The notes under the pieces: model-generated
Told to the model about the DNA's origin: nothing
The model's database searches: none
Seen by the model: the letters and a program-made list of their open reading frames with translations, nothing else
Made by a program: the position numbers and the translations under genes
Shown here: positions 1 through 27,479 of the stretch, piece after piece
Position numbering within the stretch: the stretch's first letter is position 1
Layout of the letters: each line of letters opens with the position of its first letter
Source: a virus
Virus genome (UHGV): UHGV-0150478
Strand: one strand, 5' to 3'
DNA length: 27,479 nucleotides

Positions 1-749
1 TCTTTATCTGTTGTCAGTGCGTCATAATGTGGAGGCATGATGTGCAGGTGTAACGCCATGCGGGCCAGCATCTGATACGCCTTCAGCGTTACATCCATGG
101 TCAGTTCGCCATCGGTCGCGCCAAAGCCATCGCAGAGTTTTTCGAAGGTGCTGCTGAACATCGCCGCCGTCATGGTGGCCAGCGTCTGTATCTGGTGTTT
201 GTTGAGCTGCGGCAGGTAAAGCAAATCGTCCAGGCGTTCGCGTCCGGCAAGGGAGCGATAACCAGGTGTCAGCCAGCGCCCGTCAGTGCGATCCAGACGT
301 TCGAATATTTTGCGCAGGGTTCCGCGTGTATAGCGTTCCGCCTGCCAGCTCTTTTTGCCTTTCTGACGATCGGCTTCCTGCTTCTTGCGCAGGAAAGAGA
401 GGTGGCGGCTCAGAGGTTCTCGCAGATAAACGGGAAGCGCCTTCAGTGTGGCAAAGGCACGGGCTACCGGGTCTTGTTCTGTTGCCCGGCGCTTACTGAT
501 GATGCTCTGTGCCAGCTTTTCACGCTGTCCGGCTTCCTCAAGGGATGCCATGAGTTTTTTACCCATGGCGGATTGTGCGAAAAAGGCTTCTTCCTTCGCT
601 TCCTGTTCTTCCTGTGCCCTTTTGTCCGCCTCAAGGTAGTAACGGATGGCGCGTTGCAGGTCGGTTTCAGTTTCCTGCCTGCGCTCCGTAAATCTGGCCG
701 GATCAATAGCTGGTCGTGGTTCATTCCAGCTCCATGCAAACGCACTCAT
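1..749 (-). CDS. Replication initiation protein, P2 gpA/186 A-like (N-terminal ~249 codons; gene continues beyond window start)
   Basis: Absent from the supplied ORF list because it has no stop inside the window: minus-strand frame is open from ATG at 749..747 to the window edge (translation begins MSAFAWSWNEPRPAIDPARF). ATGA start/stop overlap with ORF 746..1135. Family call rests on position as last gene of the early operon and on recalled N-terminal resemblance; not verified. Confidence 0.4.
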   Translation of the reverse strand, partial: MSAFAWSWNEPRPAIDPARFTERRQETETDLQRAIRYYLEADKRAQEEQEAKEEAFFAQSAMGKKLMASLEEAGQREKLAQSIISKRRATEQDPVARAFATLKALPVYLREPLSRHLSFLRKKQEADRQKGKKSWQAERYTRGTLRKIFERLDRTDGRWLTPGYRSLAGRERLDDLLYLPQLNKHQIQTLATMTAAMFSSTFEKLCDGFGATDGELTMDVTLKAYQMLARMALHLHIMPPHYDALTTDK

Positions 750-1135
750 GGCTGGTATCCCGTCACGCGCTGCCACTCCTGCGAGAAGAGGACGGAAAGG
801 CGGTTAAATTCAGCGGTGTATTCACTCAGCGAGGCACACCCGCCAGCAGTGCGATGCGCCAGCATTGCTGCAAATACGGAGGCCGGGGAGTCGTAATACG
901 CCAGCAGTGATTCGCCGTGCGGTGTCAGGCAGTGCAACGCCAGTCCGTGTGGTGTGAAATCCACGCGGTAGCAGTCGTCTACTGTGAAATAAAGGGTGTC
1001 TGCATTCTCCGGTTTTGTGGTGCGTGCTCTGTTGTCACGACCACGGATGTAGAGATCAAATAACCCCTGAAGAACGGGAGCCAGACGGGTGTCCTGTGTG
1101 CGCACCCATCTTGTGAAGTCATGAGCGTCAATCAT
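746..1135 (-). CDS. Hypothetical early protein (129 aa)
   Basis: ORF in the leftward early operon; its stop overlaps the start of the downstream replication-like ORF (ATGA). Confidence 0.5.
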   Translation of the reverse strand: MIDAHDFTRWVRTQDTRLAPVLQGLFDLYIRGRDNRARTTKPENADTLYFTVDDCYRVDFTPHGLALHCLTPHGESLLAYYDSPASVFAAMLAHRTAGGCASLSEYTAEFNRLSVLFSQEWQRVTGYQP

Positions 1136-1207
1136 GCTGCAATTCTCTTTACTACAGATGTGCGAAGGCCTCCCGCCGCAAGGTGCAGGAAAGGCCCGGA
1201 ACAGGAA

Positions 1208-1438
1208 TTAATGGAGTTTGTTTTGCTGCTGGATGAGCTGTTGAAGCTCGTGCAGATCATCCGCCAGATAGCTGAAAACAGAGGCGGAATAAATGTTTGA
1301 TAGTGCGTGGCTGCGCTCATGCAGCATATTGATGTGCATGATTTGCGCGACGCGTGATGCGCGGGAAAGTCTGCGGTTGATTTCAGTCTGGATGTGACGA
1401 CGCTCCGCGATAGCGCGGTGCTGTTTGCGGTCTGCCAT
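1208..1438 (-). CDS. Hypothetical small protein (76 aa)
   Basis: Protein-like composition; preferred over the overlapping 205-aa and 97-aa ORFs, which read like out-of-frame junk. Confidence 0.4.
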   Translation of the reverse strand: MADRKQHRAIAERRHIQTEINRRLSRASRVAQIMHINMLHERSHALSNIYSASVFSYLADDLHELQQLIQQQNKLH

Positions 1439-1614
1439 GGTGTGGCCTCTTTGCTCGGTGATAGAAATAACTCACCATCCAGAGTTGAGAATCTCGGGGT
1501 GGCGAGACGTACAGGGTTCTCAACACCGGAGAGCAAAGAATCCGGCCCGACCGAAGTCGGCCCCGTACGCCCCGCCATAATTCTGACGCGAAAAAGACGT
1601 GGCAATACAGTACG

Positions 1615-1638
1615 CACAAAAAAACCGCTTGCGCGGTT
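1615..1638 (-). terminator. Intrinsic terminator (minus strand)
   Basis: Perfect 6-bp stem AACCGC/GCGGTT with 4-nt loop at 1623-1638; on the minus strand it is followed by a run of 7-8 U (A-run 1615-1624 on plus). Confidence 0.5.
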
Positions 1639-1760
1639 ATGCGCTTTGCTCTGTATCGGGTTGAGAATCCCGGCACCCGTTTTATGAGGTGCAGCGGAAA
1701 TGTAACCTGACCGATTGCGGCATGGCAAGCGGTTTTTTTGTGTGTGCATGTTCTGGTTTC

Positions 1761-2060
1761 TTACTGGTTCAGAAAAAAATCAAAAACGTTATCGATGCGT
1801 TGCAGCAGCTCTTGCTGCATTGCTTCCGGCGTTTCCGGTTCGCCAGGTGCCCCCAGCGTTGCGCAGAAATCAGCGATTTCATGATGGAGCGTGAGGCGAA
1901 TGGCAGGAGCCGTGGTTCTGGCGTGCTCCAGCTGATCCAGCAGTGCCAGCACAGCAGACGGCGAGAGCATTGCGCGAAATGCCAGTAATTTTTGAGGCGT
2001 TGCCATTCGTTGCAGGGCAAATGCCAGTTCGCGTAGCTTCTGGTGGTTGATGGTGCTCAT
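1761..2060 (-). CDS. Hypothetical early protein (99 aa)
   Basis: Protein-like ORF; start overlaps stop region of 2057..2323 (operon packing). Confidence 0.5.
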   Translation of the reverse strand: MSTINHQKLRELAFALQRMATPQKLLAFRAMLSPSAVLALLDQLEHARTTAPAIRLTLHHEIADFCATLGAPGEPETPEAMQQELLQRIDNVFDFFLNQ

Positions 2061-2323
2061 GCTCTGGCTTCCTTCAGTAGCTGGTTAAACATGTTGGTAA
2101 GTGGATTGCTACACCCGAACGGCATCGGGTTTACGTGGTAAGAAGCCTGGCCTCCTGTTTTGCGAGCGCGACCACCTGTGCTGCGGTTTGTTCTGATGAC
2201 TAAGCCGCCGCGCCAAAGTCGGCGTAACTCAGCATTAATGGCTGTGGTTGGGGTATTCAGTGCTGCGGCGATCTCTCCGCCGCTACACCCCGGATGAGTA
2301 GCGATGTAGTCCAGAATGGTCAT
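2057..2323 (-). CDS. Putative winged-helix DNA-binding protein (88 aa)
   Basis: N-terminal segment (GCSGGEIAAALNTPTTAINAELRRLWRGGLV) looks like a helix-turn-helix/wHTH; overlaps neighbours by 4 nt at both ends. Confidence 0.45.
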   Translation of the reverse strand: MTILDYIATHPGCSGGEIAAALNTPTTAINAELRRLWRGGLVIRTNRSTGGRARKTGGQASYHVNPMPFGCSNPLTNMFNQLLKEARA

Positions 2324-2523
2324 CTGCGTGGCTCCTGTACCTGTCGGATAAGATTTACTCGCGCCACGTTGGTGGCGCAGAAGTAAGTGCCGTCAGTGAG
2401 GTAGATGTGGTGTGCATCCTTTTCCGAACGATGTTTGTCGATAGTGGTAATCAGGCGTTCGTCGACCTCGTATTCGCGCCCTCTGGAGGTAAAGCGAACG
2501 ACGGAAAAATGCTTAATTGCCAT
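2320..2523 (-). CDS. Hypothetical protein (67 aa)
   Basis: Small ORF tightly packed in the early operon. Confidence 0.45.
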   Translation of the reverse strand: MAIKHFSVVRFTSRGREYEVDERLITTIDKHRSEKDAHHIYLTDGTYFCATNVARVNLIRQVQEPRR

Positions 2524-2546
2524 TGCGCCCCCTTTGTCCAGTAACC

Positions 2547-2963
2547 CTATGCGTTAAATACGGCACGTTGCGCGTCATCAATGAATACAGCTTGAGAGCG
2601 TTCTATCAGGCGGAGATTTGTCAGAAGCTCTGACTCTTTTGTGTGGTAAGGCGTTATCAGGTATTTGCCGTGCAGTTCGGCAATAATGGTGTATTGCAGC
2701 ATCATTGCTGAACCAAGAATATAAATGCAGCGTCCAATGCTGGACGGATTCATGGCTGCAACTGTTGACTGTGTTTTAAGAGTGTCGATTTCTTTGCTCT
2801 GTTCCTCAATAATTTTGGCTGCGTCAGCGGTGATTTTTGCAATGGTCAGTGCGTGAAGTGCTGCCATATGTTGGCTACGCTTCACGGCATCTTTAGCCAT
2901 TTCATCTTCCGCTTCTGATATTTTTTTTAATGTGTCGATAATGCCTTCTTCTTTTGCGTTCAT
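2547..2963 (-). CDS. Hypothetical protein (138 aa), coiled-coil-like N-terminus
   Basis: ORF with charged/helical N-terminal half; no family recognised. Confidence 0.5.
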   Translation of the reverse strand: MNAKEEGIIDTLKKISEAEDEMAKDAVKRSQHMAALHALTIAKITADAAKIIEEQSKEIDTLKTQSTVAAMNPSSIGRCIYILGSAMMLQYTIIAELHGKYLITPYHTKESELLTNLRLIERSQAVFIDDAQRAVFNA

Positions 2964-3055
2964 TTTATATCTCCGTTATTTACGTGTGCGAATACCTCCG
3001 CGAATGCGGATAGTTTTCAGGTTTTCGGGTTTAATCTGGTGTTTTGTTTAAGCTG

Positions 3056-3169
3056 TTATTCGTCAGTGAAAAAGCGTTCAATCTTTTTTACTGAATGAAT
3101 AATTCGCATAATCCCAATGGCGCAGGCCACCGAAATAATCAGAACAAGCCATGAGATAAATATACTCAT
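3056..3169 (-). CDS. Small hydrophobic membrane peptide (37 aa)
   Basis: Below ORF-track cutoff. Translation MSIFISWLVLIISVACAIGIMRIIHSVKKIERFFTDE has one predicted TM helix plus a basic tail. Its ATG (3169..3167) overlaps the TGA stop of ORF 3166..3408 (ATGA coupling). Confidence 0.35.
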   Translation of the reverse strand: MSIFISWLVLIISVACAIGIMRIIHSVKKIERFFTDE

Positions 3170-3408
3170 GCGATATTCCCCAGCTTATATGGTTCAATGT
3201 GTTCCCCGCATTCTGCGGCACAGATCAGCTCGGAAAGTTCGTTAAGTGCATCCAGATCATCAGCGTAAAAAGCAACGTCATACAAACTCCGGATTGCCCT
3301 GGTCAATGAGTCACGGGCTGCATGTTCAGCATGAGCGCCTGATGCACTTAAGCGAAAATAAAATCGTTCAAGTGCTTTGTTAATGAGAGTTTTATATTCT
3401 TTGCCCAT
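3166..3408 (-). CDS. Hypothetical protein (80 aa)
   Basis: ORF in early operon. Confidence 0.5.
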   Translation of the reverse strand: MGKEYKTLINKALERFYFRLSASGAHAEHAARDSLTRAIRSLYDVAFYADDLDALNELSELICAAECGEHIEPYKLGNIA

Positions 3409-3419
3409 CGCAACGCCCT

Positions 3420-3698
3420 TTAATCTGCTTTCTGAATTTCAGCTTCTGAATCCATACAAATAATTTCGATATAGGGTTCATCGCCATTAACCTGACGTGC
3501 CTTTTCAGCTTCACTAATGATTTCTCGTACGGTCTGGTACGGAAGCTCCACAGTCAGGCGCGTACCGTTCAGATAAACGTAAGTAGCTGCGTTTTTTTCG
3601 GATGGAACAACTCCGTCAATGGCTGATGCGCGTAATAACAGTTCACCGCGAAAATCAATAAAACGGATAAATACACCTTGTGCATGCTCTTTAGTCAT
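3420..3698 (-). CDS. Hypothetical protein (92 aa from internal Met; ORF track gives 3420..3758)
   Basis: Internal ATG at 3698 (MTKEHAQG) sits 10 nt after the stop of the upstream gene and is preceded by AGGTG; the longer start would overlap the upstream gene by 50 nt. Confidence 0.5.
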   Translation of the reverse strand: MTKEHAQGVFIRFIDFRGELLLRASAIDGVVPSEKNAATYVYLNGTRLTVELPYQTVREIISEAEKARQVNGDEPYIEIICMDSEAEIQKAD

Positions 3699-3708
3699 AA
3701 AGCACCTG

Positions 3709-4059
3709 TTAAAAATCAGCCTGTTTAATAAAACTTTGCCCGCGAAGCAGACGATCAACCGTGCGAAGTGCTTCGTATAATGTGAAATCCTGCCCGAAGT
3801 GATTGTCGCCGCAGTTCAATGCAAAAATGCGGTTTCCGGTAAACGGATTGCGTGGGCATTTGTGGACCACGATTCCAGCTTTTTCAATCAGCCAGGCATG
3901 TTCGCCGATTTGTTTTACAGCGTGGCCATCCGGTGTTGCGTGCGTCTCGTTCAGGTTATAGCGACTGTTACTACGTGATGCACTGGTAGCGACGTGGTGT
4001 ACATGGCGTTCTACGCCATTACGAAATTTGGAGTATGGATTATCAGCGTTTTTTTTCAT
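3709..4059 (-). CDS. Hypothetical protein (116 aa)
   Basis: ORF in early operon. Confidence 0.5.
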   Translation of the reverse strand: MKKNADNPYSKFRNGVERHVHHVATSASRSNSRYNLNETHATPDGHAVKQIGEHAWLIEKAGIVVHKCPRNPFTGNRIFALNCGDNHFGQDFTLYEALRTVDRLLRGQSFIKQADF

Positions 4060-4080
4060 GATGGTGCTCTGTTCATTGTT

Positions 4081-4284
4081 TTAGCTGTTAGCCAAAGCGT
4101 CTTTTAACATCGCCACAAGGTTTACTTCAGGCTTTTCCATTTTGGCGCGTTTGGGGCGGATAATAATTCGACCGTCAGCCAACATCTTTTTGCATGTATT
4201 AAGAGGGATACCTGTTATCTCTGCATATTTCTGCAGGGATACATAGGGGGCATTCACATTGATATTGATGGTTATACCTGACAT
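4081..4284 (-). CDS. Small HTH DNA-binding protein (AlpA/excisionase-like or CII-like regulator)
   Basis: 67 aa; segment VSLQKYAEITGIPLNTCKKMLADGRI is a typical helix-turn-helix; second gene of the early operon. Confidence 0.45.
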   Translation of the reverse strand: MSGITININVNAPYVSLQKYAEITGIPLNTCKKMLADGRIIIRPKRAKMEKPEVNLVAMLKDALANS

Positions 4285-4300
4285 CCCACTAGCCTCCTGA

Positions 4301-4507
4301 TCAGGAAGATTTGTTTTGTTCTTTCTGGGTTAGCTCTAGGCCGCGAAGGAAGATCATGCGCGCCATGTTAGAGGATGAGCGTTGTTCTTTAGCTGCCATT
4401 TCATCAATGACGGCTCGCTCCTCGAGGGACAGCCGAAGTGCCAGTCTTGGACCTGTGGCGGTGTTACGCGGAATGCGTGATCTGGTATCGTGAAGAACTT
4501 GTTTCAT
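4301..4507 (-). CDS. Ribbon-helix-helix (Arc/MetJ/CopG-like) protein; positional analogue of P2 Cox / 186 Apl
   Basis: 68 aa; RLSLEERAVIDEMAAKEQRSSSNMARMIFLRGLE matches the RHH beta-strand plus two helices pattern; first gene of the leftward operon, divergent from the repressor gene. Confidence 0.5.
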   Translation of the reverse strand: MKQVLHDTRSRIPRNTATGPRLALRLSLEERAVIDEMAAKEQRSSSNMARMIFLRGLELTQKEQNKSS

Positions 4508-4582
4508 AGTGGTATATTGTGATCATCTAATAGCTCGTGAAATCATTTTGGTATCAAAAAAGATACCTGTCAAGGTTTTTGT
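4508..4582. promoter_or_regulatory. Divergent promoter/operator switch region
   Basis: 75-bp intergenic between divergent RHH and XRE genes. Inverted repeat GGTATC-A6-GATACC at 4550-4567, extra TGGTAT at 4510-4515, and minus-strand TTGACA at 4573..4568 with CAAAAT 17 nt downstream. Promoter assignment is by eye only. Confidence 0.4.
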
Positions 4583-4987
4583 ATGAAAAATGATATTGGT
4601 CAGCGGTTGCGTGAGGAAAGGGAAAGATTGGGACTTAGTCAAGTTGCCATGAGCGACATTGGTGGAGTCAAAAAGCTAACTCAGCTTAGATATGAGAAAG
4701 GAGATAGCTTTCCTGATGCTGCGTATTTGGCAGCGCTGTCTCGTTTTGGCCTTGATGTTCAGTATGTTGTGTTGGGAATTCACTCACCTGAAACTTATAA
4801 CGATGATGAGCAGGAATTGATTACTCGCTTTCGAGCAGCTTCGTTAGATGTGAAAAACGCGGTGATTGGGGCTTTAAAAGGTGCGATCAGTGAAAAGGAA
4901 ACTCAGCCATCAGGACGTGAGTTAAATATTTCTGGTGGTAATAACCGTATCGCTGGTCGTGACTATAACGAAACTAAGGGTAGGTGA
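4583..4987 (+). CDS. XRE-family HTH transcriptional repressor (immunity repressor candidate, C/cI position)
   Basis: N-terminus QRLREERERLGLSQVAMSDIGGVKKLTQLRYEKG is a classic Cro/C1-type HTH; first gene of the rightward operon that ends with int, as C in P2. Confidence 0.65.
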   Translation: MKNDIGQRLREERERLGLSQVAMSDIGGVKKLTQLRYEKGDSFPDAAYLAALSRFGLDVQYVVLGIHSPETYNDDEQELITRFRAASLDVKNAVIGALKGAISEKETQPSGRELNISGGNNRIAGRDYNETKGR

Positions 4988-5002
4988 TAGTAGGGAGGTG
5001 AC

Positions 5003-5653
5003 ATGGCCGTCAACTCAAACGGTTCAAACAATCGCGTTGCTGGGCGTGATTTTCACGAAAAGAATATTCAGATAGAGCGATATGATGGTTCTCATACCGT
5101 CAATATCGCAATCCCTTCGAATAATGATGATGACGATCGCCCTTTGCTTAAGGCTCAGCGTAAGGAGCTAAATAGCTTGGTTGCTGCTATTGCAGAAGCT
5201 AGCAATACTGAAGCGTTTATTATTTGGCAAAAAGTACATGCGGAGATTGGTGTAGCTGGTATTGATGATATGACAGTAAATCAATATAAAACAGCGGAGA
5301 GTTTTCTGCATGCAATGCTTGAGCGATGTAAAGATCATGATGCCTGTAAGGCTCTTGTAAGTTTATTACTACGTAACAGTGAAGACTGTGGACTTCGACA
5401 AAAACTTCTGCGGTATTGCCATATCAATTTCGGTACAGGACGTTTAAACGATCTTACTCGTTCTCAGTTACAGTCTGCATTGTCGTGGTTAGAGCAACAA
5501 TCGGCATCAAGCCACACAGAGAGTTCGACCTTACCAGAAGTCCGACTTCGTGCTTCAGAATTAATCCGACTTTATCCAAAAGAAATAATATTCTTTATCT
5601 GCGTAGGGGTTTTGGTAGGCGGTGTCATTTCTAGGGCGTTTTTTAATTTGTAA
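5003..5653 (+). CDS. Tail-anchored membrane protein, unknown function (cargo gene)
   Basis: 216 aa; single C-terminal hydrophobic helix (EIIFFICVGVLVGGVISRAFF); N-terminus repeats a motif from the C-terminus of the upstream repressor-like protein; AT-richer than flanking genes. Confidence 0.55.
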   Translation: MAVNSNGSNNRVAGRDFHEKNIQIERYDGSHTVNIAIPSNNDDDDRPLLKAQRKELNSLVAAIAEASNTEAFIIWQKVHAEIGVAGIDDMTVNQYKTAESFLHAMLERCKDHDACKALVSLLLRNSEDCGLRQKLLRYCHINFGTGRLNDLTRSQLQSALSWLEQQSASSHTESSTLPEVRLRASELIRLYPKEIIFFICVGVLVGGVISRAFFNL

Positions 5654-5682
5654 TCTTACTTGAGCTAAATTGAGGTAATGAT

Positions 5683-6030
5683 ATGAAAGTAAAAAAGGTT
5701 CAACTATTAGTTACTTTTTTATCTATGTTTTCTTTTTCCGCCGTCGCAATGCCTTTTAAAACTATTGAACGTGAGAGTTTCAATGGGGTATGGCCATTTA
5801 ATACTGATGAGGTTCAATTACAGTGTCTTGATGGTAATCCTTATGTGATGAATTTTGACGATAATAAGTTATATGCACTTACAGGTTTGGCTCGAATAAA
5901 AGGTAAAACATTTGGTGCGTTACCGTTAGATAACAATAATCCATTTTGGCTAGATAATGATGCCGCCCCAGGGTTAAAAAAGAGTCTGGGGGATGTCACT
6001 AAGGCTGCATTTGATTTATGTGATAAGTAA
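5683..6030 (+). CDS. Secreted/periplasmic small protein, unknown function (cargo gene)
   Basis: 115 aa; N-terminal signal peptide (MKVKKVQLLVTFLSMFSFSAVA, AxA-type cleavage site); two Cys in the mature part; AT-rich. Confidence 0.55.
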   Translation: MKVKKVQLLVTFLSMFSFSAVAMPFKTIERESFNGVWPFNTDEVQLQCLDGNPYVMNFDDNKLYALTGLARIKGKTFGALPLDNNNPFWLDNDAAPGLKKSLGDVTKAAFDLCDK

Positions 6031-6035
6031 CTAAA

Positions 6036-7037
6036 ATGTCGGTTCGTAAGATTCCATCAGGTAAATGGCTTTGCGAATGTTATCCCTACGGGGCATCGGG
6101 AAAACGCATTCGTAAACAGTTTGCGACAAAAAGTGAGGCGCTCTCTTATGAGCGCCGTTTAATGAATAGTAGAGTTGGAGACGAGTTTCAAGATGGTTCT
6201 GGTCCTCGTCTTTCTGAGTTGATTGCTCGCTGGTTTGAGATGTACGGTAAAACCTTGTCCTCTGGTGCAGAGCGCAAAGTCAAACTTGAGGCGATTTGTT
6301 CCAGGCTGGGAGATCCATTTGCTTCTCAGTTTGACAAAAATATGTTTGCTACTTATCGGGAAAGAAGGCTATCAGGAGAATGGAATCCCAAGGGGAAGAA
6401 AAAACTTAGTGAAGCAACCGTTAATCGCGAGCAGTCATATCTACATGCTGTTTTTGCCGAACTGAAGCGCCTTGGAGAGTGGTCTGGTGAAAACCCCCTG
6501 ACCGGTATTCGCAAGTTTCGTGAGGAAGAAAAGGAACTGGCGTTTCTGTATGTAGATGAGATTGAACGCCTTCTGATTGCGTGTGATGAGTCACGGAATA
6601 AAGATTTGGGGGTTGTTGTCCGTATTGGGCTTGCGACTGGTGCTCGGTGGAGTGAAGCAGAAGGATTAAAGCAATCTCAAGTACTGCCCGGTCGAATCAC
6701 ATTTGTTAAAACTAAAGGAAAGAAGAACCGCACTGTACCGATTTCACCTCAATTGCAAGCTATGCTTCCTAAAAAACGAGGAGCGCTATTTTCACCATGT
6801 TATGAGGCTTTTGACGCTGCAATTAAGAGAGCGAAGATCGAGCTTCCTGATGGGCAATTAACTCATGTGCTACGTCACACGTTTGCCAGTCATTTTATGA
6901 TGCGGGGCGGAAATATTCTTGTGTTGCAAAAAATACTGGGGCATAGCGATATAAAAATGACTATGCGTTATGCGCATTTTGCTCCAGGTCATTTAGAGGC
7001 TGCTGTTGAATTGAACCCTTTTGACAATAGAGGGTAA
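6036..7037 (+). CDS. int: Tyrosine recombinase, P2-family phage integrase
   Basis: 333 aa; conserved blocks GARWSEAEGLK, ITFVKTKGKKNRTVPIS, HVLRHTFASHFMMRGGNILVLQKILGHSDIKMTMRYAHFAP (R...HxxR...Y catalytic signature) align with recalled P2 Int; adjacent to att core. Confidence 0.9.
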   Translation: MSVRKIPSGKWLCECYPYGASGKRIRKQFATKSEALSYERRLMNSRVGDEFQDGSGPRLSELIARWFEMYGKTLSSGAERKVKLEAICSRLGDPFASQFDKNMFATYRERRLSGEWNPKGKKKLSEATVNREQSYLHAVFAELKRLGEWSGENPLTGIRKFREEEKELAFLYVDEIERLLIACDESRNKDLGVVVRIGLATGARWSEAEGLKQSQVLPGRITFVKTKGKKNRTVPISPQLQAMLPKKRGALFSPCYEAFDAAIKRAKIELPDGQLTHVLRHTFASHFMMRGGNILVLQKILGHSDIKMTMRYAHFAPGHLEAAVELNPFDNRG

Positions 7038-7143
7038 AAAGTGGCGATAAAAAGTGACAATAGATTCAAATGGCGTTGTATAGAGCCATTTTCAAAGTTA
7101 ATAAAATCATAAGGTTATGATTTATAAATGGTGGTTGATAGTT

Positions 7144-7198
7144 TTTAAAATCCCTCGGCGTTCGCGCTGTGCGGGTTCAAGTCCCGCTCCGGGTACCA
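7144..7198 (+). other. att core: 3' fragment of tRNA-Leu(UAA) (anticodon loop to CCA); no 5' half present
   Basis: Sequence TTTAAAATCCCTCGGCGTTCGCGCTGTGCGGGTTCAAGTCCCGCTCCGGGTACCA: anticodon TAA, long variable arm, T-arm GGGTTCAAGTCCCGC, acceptor 3' strand plus CCA. Upstream bases cannot form the 5' acceptor strand. Matches my recollection of enterobacterial leuZ 3' end. Confidence 0.8.
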
Positions 7199-7241
7199 TG
7201 GGAAAGATAAGAATAAAATCAAAGCAATAAGCAGTGTCGTG

Positions 7242-7266
7242 AAACCACCTTCGGGTGGTTTTTTTG
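7242..7266 (+). terminator. Intrinsic terminator downstream of the tRNA fragment
   Basis: 8-bp stem AAACCACC/GGTGGTTT with TTCG tetraloop (7242-7261) followed by T-run to 7265. Confidence 0.6.
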
Positions 7267-7357
7267 TATCTTCTTTTTCATTTCCGAAGATGCGTCCGAA
7301 GATGATTTTTCTCTGGACGCATCATCATTCATTTTCTCTGGCCACCAACTACGGGCA

Positions 7358-11387: not shown

Positions 11388-11742
11388 GTGAGTTGAAAAT
11401 ACGTCGCAAGGCAATAGCACACGTTAAAAATCCATTACCAGTGCCCGCCGAATGCCATTTTTGTGGTGGGAATGTACGGATTGGTACGTATGTATGGTGA
11501 TTGCGGAGTGACGTAAAACGAATCGTTGTGGGTGTAATATCGTCAATATCATTGGTTTCCCGGAGGGAAAGGACATGTTTGGCGATAAACTGGAGTTACC
11601 ACGGAACGGGCGGATAGTGCTCTATATTTCAGATTACAAAGTAACCAGGGCTGAGGTGTTGGAACCGGAAAAACATCTGGTCACGTTACCGGACATTATT
11701 GAGTTGTATAAGCGGGTCGGATAACGGCTGGGGAGGTAACTG

Positions 11743-23344: not shown

Positions 23345-24985
23345 ATGGCTATTTCTCAAAACTTTAAAACGCAGGTTGTATTCGGTGGGCGAATAAACCC
23401 GTCGTTTCGTCGCGGTACAACAGAACTCAATGATGCGATTCGGCAGACGTCGTCTACTGTCGGGAAATTAACGAAAAGTCAGGATAAATTAAAAGACAAA
23501 ATCGCAGCAATGAAACTGGCAGGTAAAGACGTTTCTGATTTATCTGCTCAGTATCAAAAGCTGGACCGTCGGATAAAAGCGACAACGCAGGACCAGGAGG
23601 CGCTGAATACTCAACTTGCTAAAAAACAGCAGCTGGAGAAGTGGACGGGTCGCGCAAAAGGAGCTGCAAAATGGGGCGGACGAGCCGCCGCAGGTGCGGT
23701 GAGGGCTACGGGGCGGGGTATCAAATGGGGGACACTTGGCGCGGCAGGGCTCATTGGCGGTGCTGCAGCTGGTGCGCTGGCAATGAATGCAGAGACGTCA
23801 GAAAAACTCGGTCTGGCGAAGTCCTACGGCGTTGGCGTCGAAAAATACGCTGCGTGGGAAAATATTGGTAAAGCCGCGGGCCTGAACGGCGAAAATATCG
23901 GGGATTTGTCTGAAGAACTTACAAATAAAATCGGCGAAATCGGAAACGAAAAAAGCCTGAATCCCATGTTATTTCAAATTGGCCTGACGAAAAAACGAAT
24001 GGCTGGCTGGGATCGGGAAAAACAGTTTAATGAGGTTATGCGTCGCATCTCTGAAATGAAAGATGAGAAGCAAGCGGCGAGCCTCGCTGACCAGCTCATG
24101 GGGGGCGAGGCTAATAAGATCATGACGTATATGAAGGCGACGGGTAAAAGCTGGGAACAGACAATGTCTGACGCGCAAAAGTCGAATTTGTTAACAAAAG
24201 AGGGTGCGGAAGGGGCGGCGCGTGCGCATGTATCAGTGACAAATCTGTGGGGCTCTATTACGTCGGGACTTGCAGATACACTCGGTAAAATCGGGGGGGA
24301 ACTCGCGCCGACGTTTGACTCAGTACGTGAAACATTTACATCCTGGTTTAAGGATAATCAGGGTGGTTTTGTCAGCACAATTACTGAGTGGGTAAAACCA
24401 GAAAATATGAAAAAAATGTGGGATGGCATCGTCAATTTTGGAGAAGGTTGCGTCAAATTCGGGAAGATTATATGGGCTGTCGTAAAGAAACTGGAGTGGC
24501 TTATTCCGGATGAAAAATCAGATGAAGAACAGAAAACTTATAATGACGAATATAATCGGGCATATCAAGAGTTTATGGATTCGGGAGGTAAATATTCACC
24601 GAACGCTGGATTGACTGCTGATAATATTGCGAAGGCAAAAGCCGAAGAGGCTGTCGAAAATATGCGGCATCCAGAACGGCAAGAACAGGCAAAATCTCAG
24701 GCAGAATCAATGCTCGCGTTTGTTAATCCATTATCCGGGATGGTAAATAAAAATACCGCGCCTGCAGCACTGGATTCGTCGACGTTAAATATTGATACGT
24801 TGAAGCAGGCAGTCTCGACACCTGCGCCGGAGCAAAACAATAAAATCGAAATCAATATTGTCGGTGCGACAGATCCGCAGTCAATACAACAATCTGCAGC
24901 GTCGGGGGTGCTCGATGGACTGAGACAGGCTGCGAGTTCGTACAATCGTGGCGCGATGTTTGATAAACCAGCGGCGGCGGGGTGA
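23345..24985 (+). CDS. Tail tape measure protein (P2 gpT-like)
   Basis: 546 aa, Ala/Gly/Lys-rich with coiled-coil-like N-terminus and Gly-rich hydrophobic stretch (GTLGAAGLIGGAAAGALAM); follows the chaperone gene. Confidence 0.8.
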   Translation: MAISQNFKTQVVFGGRINPSFRRGTTELNDAIRQTSSTVGKLTKSQDKLKDKIAAMKLAGKDVSDLSAQYQKLDRRIKATTQDQEALNTQLAKKQQLEKWTGRAKGAAKWGGRAAAGAVRATGRGIKWGTLGAAGLIGGAAAGALAMNAETSEKLGLAKSYGVGVEKYAAWENIGKAAGLNGENIGDLSEELTNKIGEIGNEKSLNPMLFQIGLTKKRMAGWDREKQFNEVMRRISEMKDEKQAASLADQLMGGEANKIMTYMKATGKSWEQTMSDAQKSNLLTKEGAEGAARAHVSVTNLWGSITSGLADTLGKIGGELAPTFDSVRETFTSWFKDNQGGFVSTITEWVKPENMKKMWDGIVNFGEGCVKFGKIIWAVVKKLEWLIPDEKSDEEQKTYNDEYNRAYQEFMDSGGKYSPNAGLTADNIAKAKAEEAVENMRHPERQEQAKSQAESMLAFVNPLSGMVNKNTAPAALDSSTLNIDTLKQAVSTPAPEQNNKIEINIVGATDPQSIQQSAASGVLDGLRQAASSYNRGAMFDKPAAAG

Positions 24986-25410
24986 CAATGAGTGATGCAA
25001 TAAACGGTGCTGAGGATATCATGCTCGGCCTGGGTGATTTCATTTTTGCTATATCAACAGTAGCGTACAACAAACTGCAACGTAGTGACGCCTGGCGCTG
25101 GGCTCAGCAAACACGATTCGGGAAAAACGACGCGTTGCAGATAACCGGACGACCGAACCCCACAATTACTATCGATGGAAAGATAAACGCTTTATTTCTT
25201 GACGGGTGCGGCGTCGGCCTGTTGACAGATTTGCGAGCGCTCGGGAACACGGGAGAACCCCAGCAGCTAGTGCTGGGGACCGGGGAGGTGAAAGGGTACT
25301 GGGTGCTGCGAGAACTAACTGAAACGCAAAACAGCTTTTTGATGGGCGGAACACCTAAATCGCAGGACTTTTCACTCACGCTCGAATATTATGGAGCTTC
25401 GCTAGATTAA
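24982..25410 (+). CDS. Tail protein (P2 gpU-like)
   Basis: 142 aa; ATGA overlap with tape measure gene; gpU-like position and size. Confidence 0.65.
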   Translation: MTMSDAINGAEDIMLGLGDFIFAISTVAYNKLQRSDAWRWAQQTRFGKNDALQITGRPNPTITIDGKINALFLDGCGVGLLTDLRALGNTGEPQQLVLGTGEVKGYWVLRELTETQNSFLMGGTPKSQDFSLTLEYYGASLD

Positions 25411-25571
25411 TAAAAAATCAAACGCTTGCAGAGCACTTAACAAGTATAAAAATAATAAAAAAAACTACGAACATAAATGTAAAACAACCTGATGGTATTT
25501 TTTTTGACGCCGAAATACTAATACCTCTCCGACTACTAAAATTAATTCTCATTATGAAATCCTTTTAATTA

Positions 25572-25796
25572 ATGGGGCCCCAAATGATTACATACACTAC
25601 ACGGGACGGTGACCGTCTCGATCAGATCTGCCTTGCGGTCTACGGGAGAGCGTCAAAAACGACAGAGACTGTTTTATATCAGGTTTCGAATTACGGCGTA
25701 ACGGATATGTGTGCCGTGTTTCGTGCTGGAGAAAAAATTGTTTTACCAGATATCGAACCAGAGCCGGTTAAAAAAGAAACGCAATTATGGGATTGA
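25572..25796 (+). CDS. Tail protein X-like (LysM-like small tail protein)
   Basis: Pattern GDRLDQICLAVYGR...TETVLYQVSNYG...LPDIEPEP resembles recalled P2 gpX; true start may be ATG at 25584. Confidence 0.6.
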   Translation: MGPQMITYTTRDGDRLDQICLAVYGRASKTTETVLYQVSNYGVTDMCAVFRAGEKIVLPDIEPEPVKKETQLWD

Positions 25797-25799
25797 TGA

Positions 25800-26843
25800 A
25801 TGAGTGATTACGTAAATACTGGCGTGGAGGCGTGGAAACCTAATTTTTATATATCTGCTGATAATAAAAACATCACGGATAAAATAAGAAAAGGTTTGAT
25901 CAATATCACGCTGACAGATTACGGCGGCTCCAGTAAACAGACAGACGAACTCCGCGTAGCAATAGTTTCTGAAACTCTGAAAATTCCGGCCCGCGGAGTA
26001 AAAATCAGTATTGGGCTCGGTTTCGGTAATCAGATAATTGATAAAGGGATATACATCGTTGACGGTGCTAGCAGTGGCGGTGAACCCCGGGTAGTTGATT
26101 TCACAGCAAAAGCGGCTCCGATGAACGCAGCAAAAGGATCTCCGACAGTTCAGAGCAAAAAGACTCGTTCCTGGAGCGACGTCACTGTCAGCGATATCGT
26201 TGCGACAATAGCGAGCGATAATGGGCTAAAACCACGCGTATCAAAGCGGTTTGCAGACAATGTTATCACGCAACTCGATCAGGTCGGCGAGTCAGATATG
26301 CACCTGATGTCGCGGCTCGCAACGAGATTCGATGCGGTGAGTAAACCCGCGGGCGGGTACTGGATATTCCTGCCGCGCGGCGCGGGCGAATCTGTTAGCG
26401 GTGCTCCGCTCCAGCACTACACGCTAACTCGTCGTGATAACTCCAGCTGGGGCTATTCGAGAAATGGACAAAGTGGCGATAGTGGTAGCGGTGGCGAAAA
26501 TCCGGAACCGACGTATCTGATTAAATATCACGACACAGCAACTGGGCAGATCAAAGAATTGCGGACAGGTAGTGGCGGCGATCCTGTCATTGAATGGCCG
26601 GCAGTTGAGCCGTCGCTCGACGCAGCGAAAGAAGCTGCACCAGGGCTCAAGGGCGGTGCAGCTAAAAAAGAGTTCTCTATGACGTACACGACGCCAGCGA
26701 CGCTCGATTTAGTGTCGCTGACAGCAGAATGCAAAGTCACAACTCAAGGATTCGGGACCGAGGAGGACCGGGACTGGACTATCAACACACTGAGTCTGAC
26801 GCTCGCTGAAAACGGTTTTTCGGTTCGGCTGTCTCTGGAGTAA
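25800..26843 (+). CDS. Tail protein D-like (P2 gpD / late tail gene)
   Basis: 347 aa; last gene of the tail module, as D in P2. Confidence 0.75.
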   Translation: MSDYVNTGVEAWKPNFYISADNKNITDKIRKGLINITLTDYGGSSKQTDELRVAIVSETLKIPARGVKISIGLGFGNQIIDKGIYIVDGASSGGEPRVVDFTAKAAPMNAAKGSPTVQSKKTRSWSDVTVSDIVATIASDNGLKPRVSKRFADNVITQLDQVGESDMHLMSRLATRFDAVSKPAGGYWIFLPRGAGESVSGAPLQHYTLTRRDNSSWGYSRNGQSGDSGSGGENPEPTYLIKYHDTATGQIKELRTGSGGDPVIEWPAVEPSLDAAKEAAPGLKGGAAKKEFSMTYTTPATLDLVSLTAECKVTTQGFGTEEDRDWTINTLSLTLAENGFSVRLSLE

Positions 26844-27009
26844 ATGGGCTCGGCGAGCCGGTGGCGGTATGAATTTAGTATTAACAGATGTCGACTGCAA
26901 ACGGCACCTGCGATATTTTTAGGCGTAAGCCGGAGAACGAAGAGTCTCTGGTGCTGAACGTTGTTATCGTTAGATGCTGACATATTTTTAATATTGGGAG
27001 TTTTCAAAC

Positions 27010-27429
27010 ATGGTCGTTAAAAATGGTCTTGCCTGTGGGATTATGCTTGCTCTTGTCGGTTGTGCTACAAAACCTGTCTCAAATGAACAAGCCACTCCTG
27101 TTCCTGAAAAACAAATTATCAGTACCGCGTTACTCGAAAAACGAGACGGTACGGGAGAGGTGATCATCAAGCGTGACTCGGGTTTCTTTGGAAGCGCGTG
27201 TTTTTCCCGTGTTTATGTTGATGGTAAAGAGGTGGCAGATTTAGGTACAGCTCAGAAAGTCGTTGTATACCCAACGATTGGTGATCATGTCTTCAGCGCG
27301 TGGCCAAAAGGAGTATGTGGTGGTGGCATGAGCGAACAAGCGGGCAAGGTGACAACAGATCGTACTTTGATGTATCGCATAGGGTATGGATCAAACGGTG
27401 AATATGGAATTCACCCAACCGCGTTTTAA
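27010..27429 (+). CDS. Lipoprotein, unknown function (moron after tail module)
   Basis: 139 aa; signal peptide with lipobox LVGC (Cys18); separated from the tail operon by 166 bp; followed by hairpin GGGGTAT...ATACCCC at 27440-27468. Confidence 0.6.
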   Translation: MVVKNGLACGIMLALVGCATKPVSNEQATPVPEKQIISTALLEKRDGTGEVIIKRDSGFFGSACFSRVYVDGKEVADLGTAQKVVVYPTIGDHVFSAWPKGVCGGGMSEQAGKVTTDRTLMYRIGYGSNGEYGIHPTAF

Positions 27430-27479
27430 TTTGTGTTGGGGTATGTGAGTTTTTCTCATACCCCTTTACCTCGCTTTGC

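What the first reader, a model, noticed from the sequence alone, without database searches (positions are those of the whole stretch)
26844..27479. Lipoprotein moron downstream of the last tail gene
After the gpD-like gene and a 166-bp spacer lies a stand-alone gene for a 139-aa lipoprotein (lipobox LVGC, four further Cys), followed by a hairpin at 27440-27468. Small lipoproteins encoded next to tail genes (Cor-type, Llp-type) are known to block the phage's own outer-membrane receptor, so this is a candidate lysogenic-conversion or exclusion gene. I do not recognise the sequence.
Basis: partly seen in the sequence, partly recalled or inferred. Interest (0 to 1): 0.5.

Follow-up and report, generated by a model that had tools for sequence, protein, structure and literature searches.

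The report
Prophage outer-membrane lipoprotein of unknown function

Summary
The gene is real: 27010-27429 (+), 139 aa, canonical lipobox LVGC, Ala at +2 (outer-membrane sorting), dN/dS 0.06-0.09. Two details were wrong. There are three further Cys, not four. The 166-bp "spacer" is the scar of a deleted tail-fibre-like gene, not a promoter region.

The gene lies inside the prophage, 220 bp before attR at leuZ/yecA, so it is not a host flanking gene. Related prophages lack it or keep only a remnant.

It belongs to PHROG 890 "lipoprotein" (E 2.5e-52), a family of about 1,400 50%-identity clusters with no characterised member. It shows no similarity to Cor, mEp021 Lpp, Bor, spanins or PADLOC models. 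No Llp-like match appeared in any search, though Llp itself was not compared. The predicted fold is a generic transthyretin-like beta-sandwich.

Homologues sit in at least six different slots of tail-tip gene clusters, directly after a cI repressor, on phage-plasmids, and beside SIR2-HerA, AbiGi and Shedu genes. 69 of 86 are followed by a terminator.

Near-identical lipoproteins accompany unrelated J receptor-binding ends. This argues against blocking the phage's own receptor.

Best reading: a moron-like accessory envelope lipoprotein giving receptor-independent phage exclusion. This function is inferred and untested.

The parts
7144..7267 (.). Left att copy: the 3' half of tRNA-Leu leuZ (from the anticodon loop) plus 70 nt of native downstream sequence with the leuZ terminator. 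It is 100% identical to the attR copy that starts 171 nt beyond the window end. It marks the left boundary of the ~20.4-kb prophage that carries the lipoprotein gene. An integrase gene of a second, tandem element lies just left of it (6036-7037).
   Evidence: ARAGORN finds no complete tRNA in the window
24982..25410 (+). gpU-like tail gene (context)
   Evidence: PF06995 Phage_P2_GpU, E 3.1e-31
25572..25796 (+). gpX-like tail gene (context)
   Evidence: PF05489 Phage_tail_X, E 2.3e-15
25800..26843 (+). gpD-like tail/baseplate hub gene. It is the last tail gene in this window, intact here but carrying a 1-bp frameshift in many ST131 copies.
   Evidence: phrog_52 tail protein, E 2.7e-94; PF05954, E 3e-05; RefSeq 'VgrG/Pvc8 family'; frameshifted copies
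26844..27009 (+). 166-bp gap, the deletion scar of a tail-fibre-like gene. 26842-26887 resembles the gene's 5' part and 26955-27009 its 3' end plus the short gap before the lipoprotein start. No consensus promoter is present.
26996..27000 (+). Shine-Dalgarno GGGAG, 9 nt before the ATG
   Evidence: read from the sequence
27010..27429 (+). Lipoprotein gene (139 aa with stop; RefSeq WP_001296152.1 'hypothetical protein'), a member of PHROG 890
27010..27063 (+). Signal peptide and lipobox (residues 1-18, L-V-G-C18). Ala19 at +2 predicts outer-membrane sorting.
   Evidence: rule match; G17 C18 A19 T20 conserved in >=90% of 35 homologues
27438..27464 (+). Hairpin 9 nt after the stop codon. It is terminator-like but has a weak U-tract. 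It is preserved with a compensatory G-C to A-U change and a U.U to C-G change in a diverged lineage where the coding sequence has decayed.

Best explanation
Shown: 27010-27429 is an intact gene under purifying selection. It encodes a small lipoprotein precursor and is the last gene of a defective lambda-head/P2-tail hybrid prophage integrated at tRNA-Leu leuZ next to yecA in E. coli. It is dispensable cargo. It belongs to a large, uncharacterised family carried by mobile elements (PHROG 890, distantly DUF2846-like) that has been inserted independently into many slots of phage tail-tip gene clusters and elsewhere. Inferred: after Sec export, lipidation at Cys18 and Lol sorting (Ala at +2), the ~121-aa mature protein is anchored in the outer membrane. 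The model shows a single transthyretin-like beta-sandwich, probably with a C64-C103 disulfide. My committed mechanism: made in the lysogen, and also late in lytic growth where it sits in a late operon, it protects the cell at the envelope against incoming phages. This would be superinfection exclusion acting on a conserved envelope step after or independent of specific receptor recognition, such as tail-tip penetration or DNA ejection across the periplasm. It would not work by plugging the particular receptor of its own phage. In this window the prophage has lost Q, the lysis genes, terminase and portal, so any expression must come from a local, non-consensus promoter or from read-through. That expression is not shown.
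For: Gene reality and lipoprotein nature. Inside the prophage: host DNA resumes 220 bp downstream. Accessory status: related prophages have a fibre-like gene and only a remnant of this gene; L024 has both. Mobility: in about 106 loci the gene sits between K and I (~60), TMP and M (~16), I and J (5), T and TMP (~5), M and L (1), or after gpD (5), always on the tail-gene strand. Moron-type terminator: 69 of 86 distinct loci have a hairpin plus T-run within 100 nt downstream, against 0.076 expected per 100 nt. Lysogeny linkage: in Vibrio phage Her the gene follows the cI-like repressor by 15 bp on the same strand and is followed by a terminator. In L101 it follows an HTH protein by 15 bp. Defence linkage: distant chromosomal homologues are immediately upstream of SIR2-HerA (E 1e-159 and 2.4e-259), AbiGi (E 7.7e-52; the island also holds toxin-antitoxin genes) and HNH plus Shedu SduA_C (E 1.8e-18). 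Receptor independence. Precedent: unrelated small lipoproteins encoded in the structural cluster of mEpimmI coliphages were shown experimentally to exclude phages (PMC11893012).
Confidence: 0.45

Rival explanations
1. Cor/Llp-type blocker of the phage's own outer-membrane receptor. The lipoprotein binds the receptor used by its own phage and inactivates it, which excludes homologous phages and protects progeny from debris.
For: It is a small outer-membrane-type lipoprotein encoded beside tail genes. In L024 it lies 28 nt after a tail-fibre-like gene, the classic position of llp and cor. Lipoproteins in structural clusters do exclude phages that use the same receptor (PMC11893012).
Against: There is no similarity to Cor or mEp021 Lpp. 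mEp390 carries both this family (gp17) and a separate Cor. Lipoproteins >=95% identical accompany J C-termini <35% identical on otherwise >=90% identical backbones. The family also occurs in a myovirus, after repressors, on phage-plasmids and in non-phage islands across Gamma-, Beta- and Deltaproteobacteria.
Confidence: 0.12
2. Host-fitness or lysogenic-conversion factor unrelated to phages (Bor-like). The envelope lipoprotein would raise serum, stress or antimicrobial tolerance, or alter the surface properties of the lysogen.
For: The gene is retained intact in a prophage that has lost Q, lysis, terminase and portal genes. It is also intact in about 430 clinical E. coli genomes, including ST131 strains, many of which have a frameshifted gpD. 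It is carried on SSU5-like phage-plasmids and on Yersinia pestis plasmids. The beta-sandwich resembles carbohydrate-binding or transthyretin-like modules.
Against: There is no match to Lambda_Bor or any virulence family. The ST131 copies are clonal, so their conservation says little about selection. The recurrent placement in tail-tip clusters, after repressors and next to defence genes fits phage-related selection better.
Confidence: 0.2
3. Lytic-cycle helper expressed with the late tail operon. For example, it might stop progeny virions from being wasted on debris or vesicles, or it might modulate the envelope before lysis, with no role in the lysogen.
For: Most copies are packed tightly into late tail operons on the same strand, with gaps of 33-146 nt and no recognisable promoter. 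In L024 the gap is 28 nt.
Against: A conserved terminator directly after the gene inside a late operon has no obvious function unless non-antiterminated transcription starts nearby. The copies after cI-like repressors and in non-phage islands cannot be late genes. It is not a spanin: the lysis cassette lies elsewhere in the full-length prophage, and the spanin PHROG hits (E 0.16-0.21) cover only the signal peptide.
Confidence: 0.12
4. Inhibitor of a peptidoglycan hydrolase (Spackle, MliC or PliC-like). The lipoprotein would neutralise tail-associated or external lysozymes in the periplasm.
For: The most common position is directly after gpK, which carries NlpC/P60 and JAB domains. Two of 35 homologues give very weak T4_Spackle hits (E 0.085).
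Confidence: 0.06

Closest known systems
PHROG 890 'lipoprotein' (e.g. Escherichia phage HK639 gp16, 69% identical; mEp390 gp17 and phage Fostie lipoprotein, ~28-30% identical)
   Same: Full-length homology (E 2.5e-52). Same size, lipobox, two conserved mature Cys and C-terminal GYGSNG..PTAF motif. All are encoded inside tail gene clusters.
   Different: Here the gene follows gpD of a P2-type contractile tail at the prophage end, rather than sitting in the K|I or TMP|M slot of a siphovirus tail. None of these proteins has a known function.
Pfam DUF2846 (PF11008)
   Same: Small proteobacterial lipoproteins with a beta-sandwich. 7 of 35 family members hit the model (best E 1.2e-06), and one homologue carries it as a precomputed domain.
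   Different: The window protein itself gives no hit at E <= 1. DUF2846 has no assigned function. The one 'DUF2846' protein with a solved structure (Bd1399) was reassigned to DUF4360 by its authors (PMC10792529).
Cor (phi80, N15, HK022, mEp167) and T5 Llp superinfection-exclusion lipoproteins
   Same: Phage-encoded outer-membrane-type lipoproteins located next to tail or receptor-binding genes. They are accessory genes.
   Different: Those are ~55-60-aa mature proteins that block FhuA (my own knowledge of the literature). This protein has a 121-aa mature form. It shows no sequence similarity to Cor, no fold match and no co-variation with the receptor-binding end of J. It co-exists with Cor in mEp390.
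mEpimmI Lpp021 / Lpp010 exclusion lipoproteins (PMC11893012)
   Same: Lipoproteins encoded within the structural gene cluster of temperate coliphages. They were shown to exclude phages when expressed alone.
   Different: mEp021 gp81 is a 72-aa precursor and is unrelated (BLASTP E 0.37 over 11 residues). There is no homologue of our protein in the mEp021 genome.
HK97 gp15 moron and TP-J34 Ltp
   Same: From my own knowledge: gp15 is a terminator-bounded moron between the tail chaperone and tape-measure genes that blocks DNA entry. Ltp is a lipoprotein made by the lysogen that blocks DNA injection. Salmonella and Yersinia copies of this family occupy the same T|TMP slot, and Vibrio copies sit in the lysogeny module after cI.
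   Different: gp15 is an inner-membrane protein and Ltp is a Gram-positive helical protein. Neither is homologous to this family. A block to DNA entry is only a hypothesis here.
Lambda Bor (serum-resistance lipoprotein)
   Same: A prophage-encoded outer-membrane lipoprotein expressed in lysogens.
   Different: No PF06291 match. Bor is not associated with tail genes or defence islands.

Membership tests
Bacterial lipoprotein (Lgt/Lsp/Lnt substrate) | Signal peptide with a basic n-region, a hydrophobic core and a lipobox [LVI][ASTVI][GAS]C, with the Cys at positions 15-35 | tested here: met
   K4, hydrophobic residues 7-16, L15-V16-G17-C18. The PS51257-type pattern matches residues 8-18. G17, C18, A19 and T20 are conserved in >=90% of 35 homologues.
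Bacterial lipoprotein (Lgt/Lsp/Lnt substrate) | Actual lipidation, globomycin-sensitive processing and outer-membrane location (no Asp at +2) | not testable with these tools
   Only the sorting rule could be read: +2 is Ala. This is Ala in 46 and Ser in 2 of the 48 proteins in which a lipobox was scored automatically.
PHROG 890 'lipoprotein' | Full-length match to the family profile | tested here: met
   E 2.5e-52, 177 bits, residues 4-139 against profile positions 2-136 of 136.
Pfam DUF2846 (PF11008) | Match to the Pfam model above its threshold | tested here: inconclusive
   The query gives no hit at E <= 1. 7 of 35 homologues hit the model, best E 1.2e-06. P0079 has it as a precomputed domain.
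Moron (promoter + gene + terminator inserted between conserved phage genes) | Present or absent between otherwise closely related phages, and inserted between adjacent conserved genes | tested here: met
   for this prophage lineage. At least six different junctions occur in tail clusters elsewhere.
Moron (promoter + gene + terminator inserted between conserved phage genes) | Own transcription terminator directly downstream | tested here: met
   Family: 69 of 86 loci against 0.076 expected per 100 nt. In the window copy there is only a strong hairpin with a weak T-tract, which fails the rule. That hairpin is conserved with compensatory changes.
Moron (promoter + gene + terminator inserted between conserved phage genes) | Own promoter active in the lysogen | tested here: inconclusive
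   No sigma-70-like site in the window. 8 of 82 upstream regions have one (background 0.06 sites per 200 nt). Expression data are not available.
Cor superinfection-exclusion lipoproteins | Sequence homology to Cor | tested here: not met
   BLASTP against mEp390 Cor: best E 0.39 over 11 residues. The only other PHROG hits are spanin families at E 0.16-0.21, over the signal peptide only.
Cor superinfection-exclusion lipoproteins | Specificity tied to the receptor used by the carrying phage | tested here: not met
   Near-identical lipoproteins occur with unrelated J C-termini. This is indirect; no phenotype was measured.
T5 Llp | Homology in sequence or fold to Llp | tested here: not met
Lambda Bor / Iss | Match to PF06291 | tested here: not met
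   No Pfam family at E <= 1.
o-spanin (Rz1-like) | Short proline-rich lipoprotein embedded in or next to an i-spanin gene in the lysis cassette | tested here: not met
   The protein is a 139-aa folded beta-sandwich. Spanin PHROG hits (E 0.16-0.21) cover residues 2-34 only. The lysis genes lie about 20 kb away in the full-length prophage.
Known anti-phage defence systems (PADLOC 2.0) | Match to any defence-protein model | tested here: not met
   0 families at E <= 1.

The most novel reading that the evidence does not exclude
The family is a widespread, receptor-independent superinfection-exclusion lipoprotein. It would be an outer-membrane-anchored beta-sandwich that blocks a conserved envelope step of tail penetration or DNA ejection for both siphoviruses and myoviruses. 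It would be exchanged as a terminator-bounded cassette among temperate phages, phage-plasmids, small integrative elements and defence islands of Gamma-, Beta- and Deltaproteobacteria.
Probability: 0.3. Interest if true: 0.7.

Novelty: new member of a known kind. Interest (0 to 1): 0.45.

Why it matters
Prophage lipoproteins such as Cor, Llp and the mEpimmI Lpp proteins are the classic way a lysogen closes the door on related phages, but each known one is tied to a single receptor. This family is much larger: about 1,400 clusters at 50% identity, present in 435 of 5,426 complete E. coli genomes including ST131, and on 631 plasmid records, mostly non-mobilizable Klebsiella, Enterobacter, Escherichia, Yersinia and Salmonella plasmids (SSU5-like phage-plasmids and Y. 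pestis plasmids among the records inspected). It is decoupled from the receptor-binding domain and is completely unstudied. If it excludes phages, it would be a broad envelope-level barrier relevant to phage therapy against ST131 and Klebsiella. It would also give a handle on the poorly understood periplasmic stage of DNA ejection. If it does not, it is still a common and conserved lysogenic-conversion candidate in clinical Enterobacterales.

Tried and rejected
- The host flanking gene idea is rejected. Only the last 594 bases of the probe (leuZ 3' half to yecA) are shared by 5,425 of 5,426 genomes; the lipoprotein gene is in 435.
- Pfam, NCBIfam, PADLOC and the PDB sequence search gave nothing for the protein.
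- The spanin reading is rejected.
- Homology to Cor and to mEp021 Lpp is rejected.
- Literature searches found no characterisation. The terms were DUF2846, HK639, H20-like Vibrio phages, phage morons with lipoprotein, and superinfection exclusion with lipoprotein and tape measure. The phiv142-3 orf6/orf10 paper and the Salmonella lysogeny transcriptomics paper were irrelevant.
- The window scan for a promoter or terminator was negative. A family-wide promoter scan showed no clear enrichment.
- My first terminator script under-counted, because A-T pairs extended stems into the T-run. It was corrected.
- A regex-based lipobox count mis-scored some proteins, so the alignment conservation is used instead.
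- Reading the 166-bp gap as a dedicated regulatory spacer is rejected in favour of a deletion scar.

Full report
**1. What is in the sequence**

- The gpD-like gene ends at 26843 (TAA). A 166-bp gap follows, and an ORF at 27010-27429 (+) encodes 139 aa behind a GGGAG Shine-Dalgarno at 26996-27000.
- The upstream genes are P2-type tail genes: gpU (PF06995, E 3e-31), gpX (PF05489, E 2e-15) and gpD (phrog_52, E 2.7e-94).
- The N-terminus MVVKNGLACGIMLALVGC fits the lipoprotein signal rule, with Cys18 as the lipidated residue and Ala at +2.
- The Cys residues are at 9, 18, 64 and 103. There are therefore three further Cys, not four, and only two lie in the mature protein.
- A hairpin at 27438-27464 has dG -16.4 kcal/mol and z -4.8. 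Its T-tract is weak, so the consensus scan calls neither a terminator nor a promoter in 26500-27479.

**2. It is a real gene under selection**

- Homologues reach E 1.8e-87, and PHROG 890 'lipoprotein' matches end to end (E 2.5e-52).
- In an alignment of 35 homologues, the lipobox, C64, C103, a KRDSG.xGSxC motif, CGGGM.E and a C-terminal R.GYG.NG....PTAF are invariant or nearly so.
- dN/dS is 0.08 against a 94%-identical copy, 0.09 against a Salmonella copy, and 0.06 between HK639 and an Enterobacter copy.

**3. Where the window comes from, and the boundary of the element**

- The window matches the E. coli CEA601S chromosome.
- Downstream of the lipoprotein gene lie 220 bp of phage DNA and then the 3' half of tRNA-Leu leuZ, followed by yecA.
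- A probe across the junction shows that only the part from leuZ onward is shared by 5,425 of 5,426 complete E. coli genomes. The lipoprotein region is present in 435. The gene is therefore inside the prophage and is its last gene.
- An identical 124-nt copy of the leuZ 3' half plus 70 nt of native sequence lies in the window at 7144-7267, just right of an integrase gene at 6036-7037. Two elements thus sit in tandem at leuZ, and the one carrying the lipoprotein spans about 7268 to 27650.
- The full-length version in strain SK1144 has lambda-type head genes, Q, holins, an endolysin, terminase and portal, plus the P2-type tail. Relative to it, the window copy has a 15.5-kb deletion (junction near 11722) that removes Q, the lysis genes, terminase and portal.
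- That deletion junction occurs in only 3 of 5,426 genomes.
- Many ST131 copies instead carry a 1-bp frameshift in gpD.

**4. The 'spacer' and the hairpin**

- A related prophage from IMG/VR (L024) has gpD, then a 598-aa protein with a Prophage-tail-fibre-N domain (PF08400, E 4e-24), then the lipoprotein gene only 28 nt later.
- Window 26842-26887 matches the 5' part of that fibre-like gene, and 26955 onward matches its 3' end and the short gap. The 166-bp gap is therefore a deletion scar rather than a dedicated regulatory region.
- Prophages with 91-93% identical gpD, integrated next to yodB, keep a 336-aa fibre-like gene. They retain only the last ~94 nt of the lipoprotein coding sequence plus the hairpin.
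- In that lineage the hairpin is preserved through one G-C to A-U double change and a U.U to C-G change. This suggests the hairpin itself is functional.
- Three states therefore exist among close relatives: both genes, fibre only, and lipoprotein only. This shows that the lipoprotein is dispensable cargo.

**5. The family elsewhere**

- Close homologues (61-76% identity) in Klebsiella, Salmonella and Enterobacter prophages sit in lambda-type tail clusters at different junctions: K|I, T|TMP and TMP|M.
- Isolated phages carry the gene too:
  - HK639 gp16 (TMP|M, next to a YafO toxin gene).
  - mEp390 gp17 and phage Fostie (K|I).
  - Pseudomonas phages (K|I).
  - Vibrio anguillarum H20-like phages, where the gene follows the cI-like repressor by 15 bp.
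  - SSU5-like phage-plasmids.
- A survey of 96 further loci from IMG/VR and GTDB genomes gave roughly these counts:

| Position | Loci |
|---|---|
| K\|I | ~60 |
| TMP\|M | ~16 |
| I\|J | 5 |
| T\|TMP | ~5 |
| M\|L | 1 |
| after gpD | 5 |
| other contexts | ~10 |

- In all tail-cluster loci the gene is on the same strand as the tail genes.
- 69 of 86 distinct loci have a canonical hairpin plus T-run within 100 nt of the stop codon (median 19 nt). The background is 0.076 such sites per 100 nt.
- Consensus promoters upstream are not clearly enriched (8 of 82).
- The family has 1,441 clusters at 50% identity with E <= 0.001, and 736 with E <= 1e-10. No source gives it a functional name. It is found on 631 plasmid records, mostly non-mobilizable plasmids of Klebsiella, Enterobacter, Escherichia, Yersinia and Salmonella; the records inspected include ~110-kb SSU5-like phage-plasmids and Yersinia pestis plasmids.

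**6. Contexts outside tail clusters**

- Distant homologues (40-55% identity) are immediately followed by defence genes in three cases:
  - A SIR2-HerA pair in Nitrosospira (PADLOC E 1e-159 and 2.4e-259).
  - AbiGi in groundwater Deltaproteobacteria (E 7.7e-52), in an island between housekeeping genes that also holds toxin-antitoxin pairs.
  - An HNH nuclease plus a Shedu SduA_C protein in a Methylococcales symbiont.
- In Vibrio alginolyticus the gene is cargo of a small integrase-bearing element.
- In IMG/VR locus L101 it follows an HTH protein by 15 bp.

**7. Structure**

- AlphaFold2 with the 35-sequence alignment gives a confident model (pLDDT 88.5, pTM 0.81). It is an eight-stranded beta-sandwich preceded by an ordered extended segment.
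- Foldseek against the PDB has no hit at E <= 0.001. BFVD gives weak matches to uncharacterised proteins.
- No fold of a known exclusion lipoprotein, lysozyme inhibitor or Bor appears.

**8. Test of the 'own receptor' idea**

- If the protein plugged the receptor used by its own phage, it should change when the receptor-binding end of J changes.
- Among loci with a complete J-sized ORF of 1,000-1,400 aa downstream, 42 pairs have lipoproteins >=95% identical.
- In 20 of these pairs the last 250 aa of J are <35% identical, and in 19 of those 20 the first 600 aa of J are >=90% identical (a similar result).
- Receptor-binding modules have therefore been swapped on one backbone without any change in the lipoprotein.
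- mEp390 also carries a separate Cor gene.
- Caveats: side fibres were not considered, and a few of the long ORFs in T|TMP loci are tape-measure genes.

**9. Comparison with known systems**

- Membership of PHROG 890 is met. Relation to Pfam DUF2846 is borderline.
- Functionally, the nearest precedents are lipoproteins encoded in structural clusters that exclude phages (PMC11893012).
- From my own knowledge, two further precedents apply: the HK97 gp15 moron in the T|TMP slot, and the Ltp lipoprotein of TP-J34. Both block DNA entry rather than adsorption.

**10. Verdict**

- The moron or accessory reading is supported. The specific Cor/Llp reading is not.
- The most likely function is envelope-level, receptor-independent protection against phage infection (confidence 0.45).
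- This rests on gene-neighbourhood evidence (tail-tip slots, terminators, linkage to repressors, adjacency to defence genes) and on precedent. There are no functional data.
- In this particular window the prophage has lost its late-gene activator, and no promoter is recognisable. Whether the gene is expressed here is therefore open.

Noticed in passing
window 25893-25926 (inside gpD): A 34-nt stretch is 100% identical to a sequence annotated as CRISPR in E. coli strain LR-46 (NZ_AP027537.1, 2014626-2014659). It is probably a spacer acquired against this phage type (hit H174).
   Followed up: no
window 25411-25571, minus-strand ORF 25418-25552: The gap between gpU and gpX holds a 44-aa hydrophobic ORF on the opposite strand. 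At the same position the related prophage in strain RM9387 carries a 66-aa Imm_superinfect protein (PF14373, E 2.4e-11). The two ORFs show no DNA similarity, and the window ORF has no Pfam hit. This looks like a second cargo slot inside the tail cluster.
   Followed up: partly
window 6036-7267: An integrase gene (PF24624/PF00589) is followed by a copy of the leuZ 3' half plus 70 nt. Window 1-7143 is therefore the right end of a different integrated element lying in tandem with the lipoprotein-bearing prophage. This exact arrangement is found in only one of 5,426 complete E. coli genomes (CEA601S), which has three att copies.
   Followed up: partly
window ~11720-11723: This is the junction of a 15.5-kb deletion relative to the full-length prophage of strain SK1144. 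The deletion removes an ORF6N gene, an LprI-family 'lysozyme inhibitor' gene, ImmA, Q, holins, the endolysin, terminase, gpW and portal. The window prophage is therefore cryptic. The junction is present in 3 of 5,426 genomes.
   Followed up: partly
gpD, window 25800-26843, compared with other genomes: In many ST131-type genomes (for example JJ1886) the same region is 1 bp longer and gpD is annotated as two hypothetical proteins. GenBank 'phage' records ON470596, ON470624 and ON470627 show the same split. gpD is intact in the window.
   Followed up: no
L007 6001-6957 (Salmonella prophage): In the T|TMP slot the lipoprotein gene has no terminator. Instead it is followed 18 nt later by a 173-aa hydrophobic ORF with no Pfam family above threshold, possibly a two-gene cassette. 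A perfect extended -10 (TGATATAAT) lies about 17 nt upstream of the lipoprotein start.
   Followed up: no
L013 6864-7882 (phage HK639): The TMP|M slot of HK639 holds, after the lipoprotein gene and its terminator, two further cargo genes. One is a YafO-family toxin.
   Followed up: no
protein residues 136-139 (window 27415-27426): The C-terminus PTAF, ending in Phe, is conserved in >=90% of homologues. It superficially resembles the C-terminal aromatic signal of outer-membrane beta-barrel proteins, but the model is a soluble-type sandwich. The significance is unknown.
   Followed up: no
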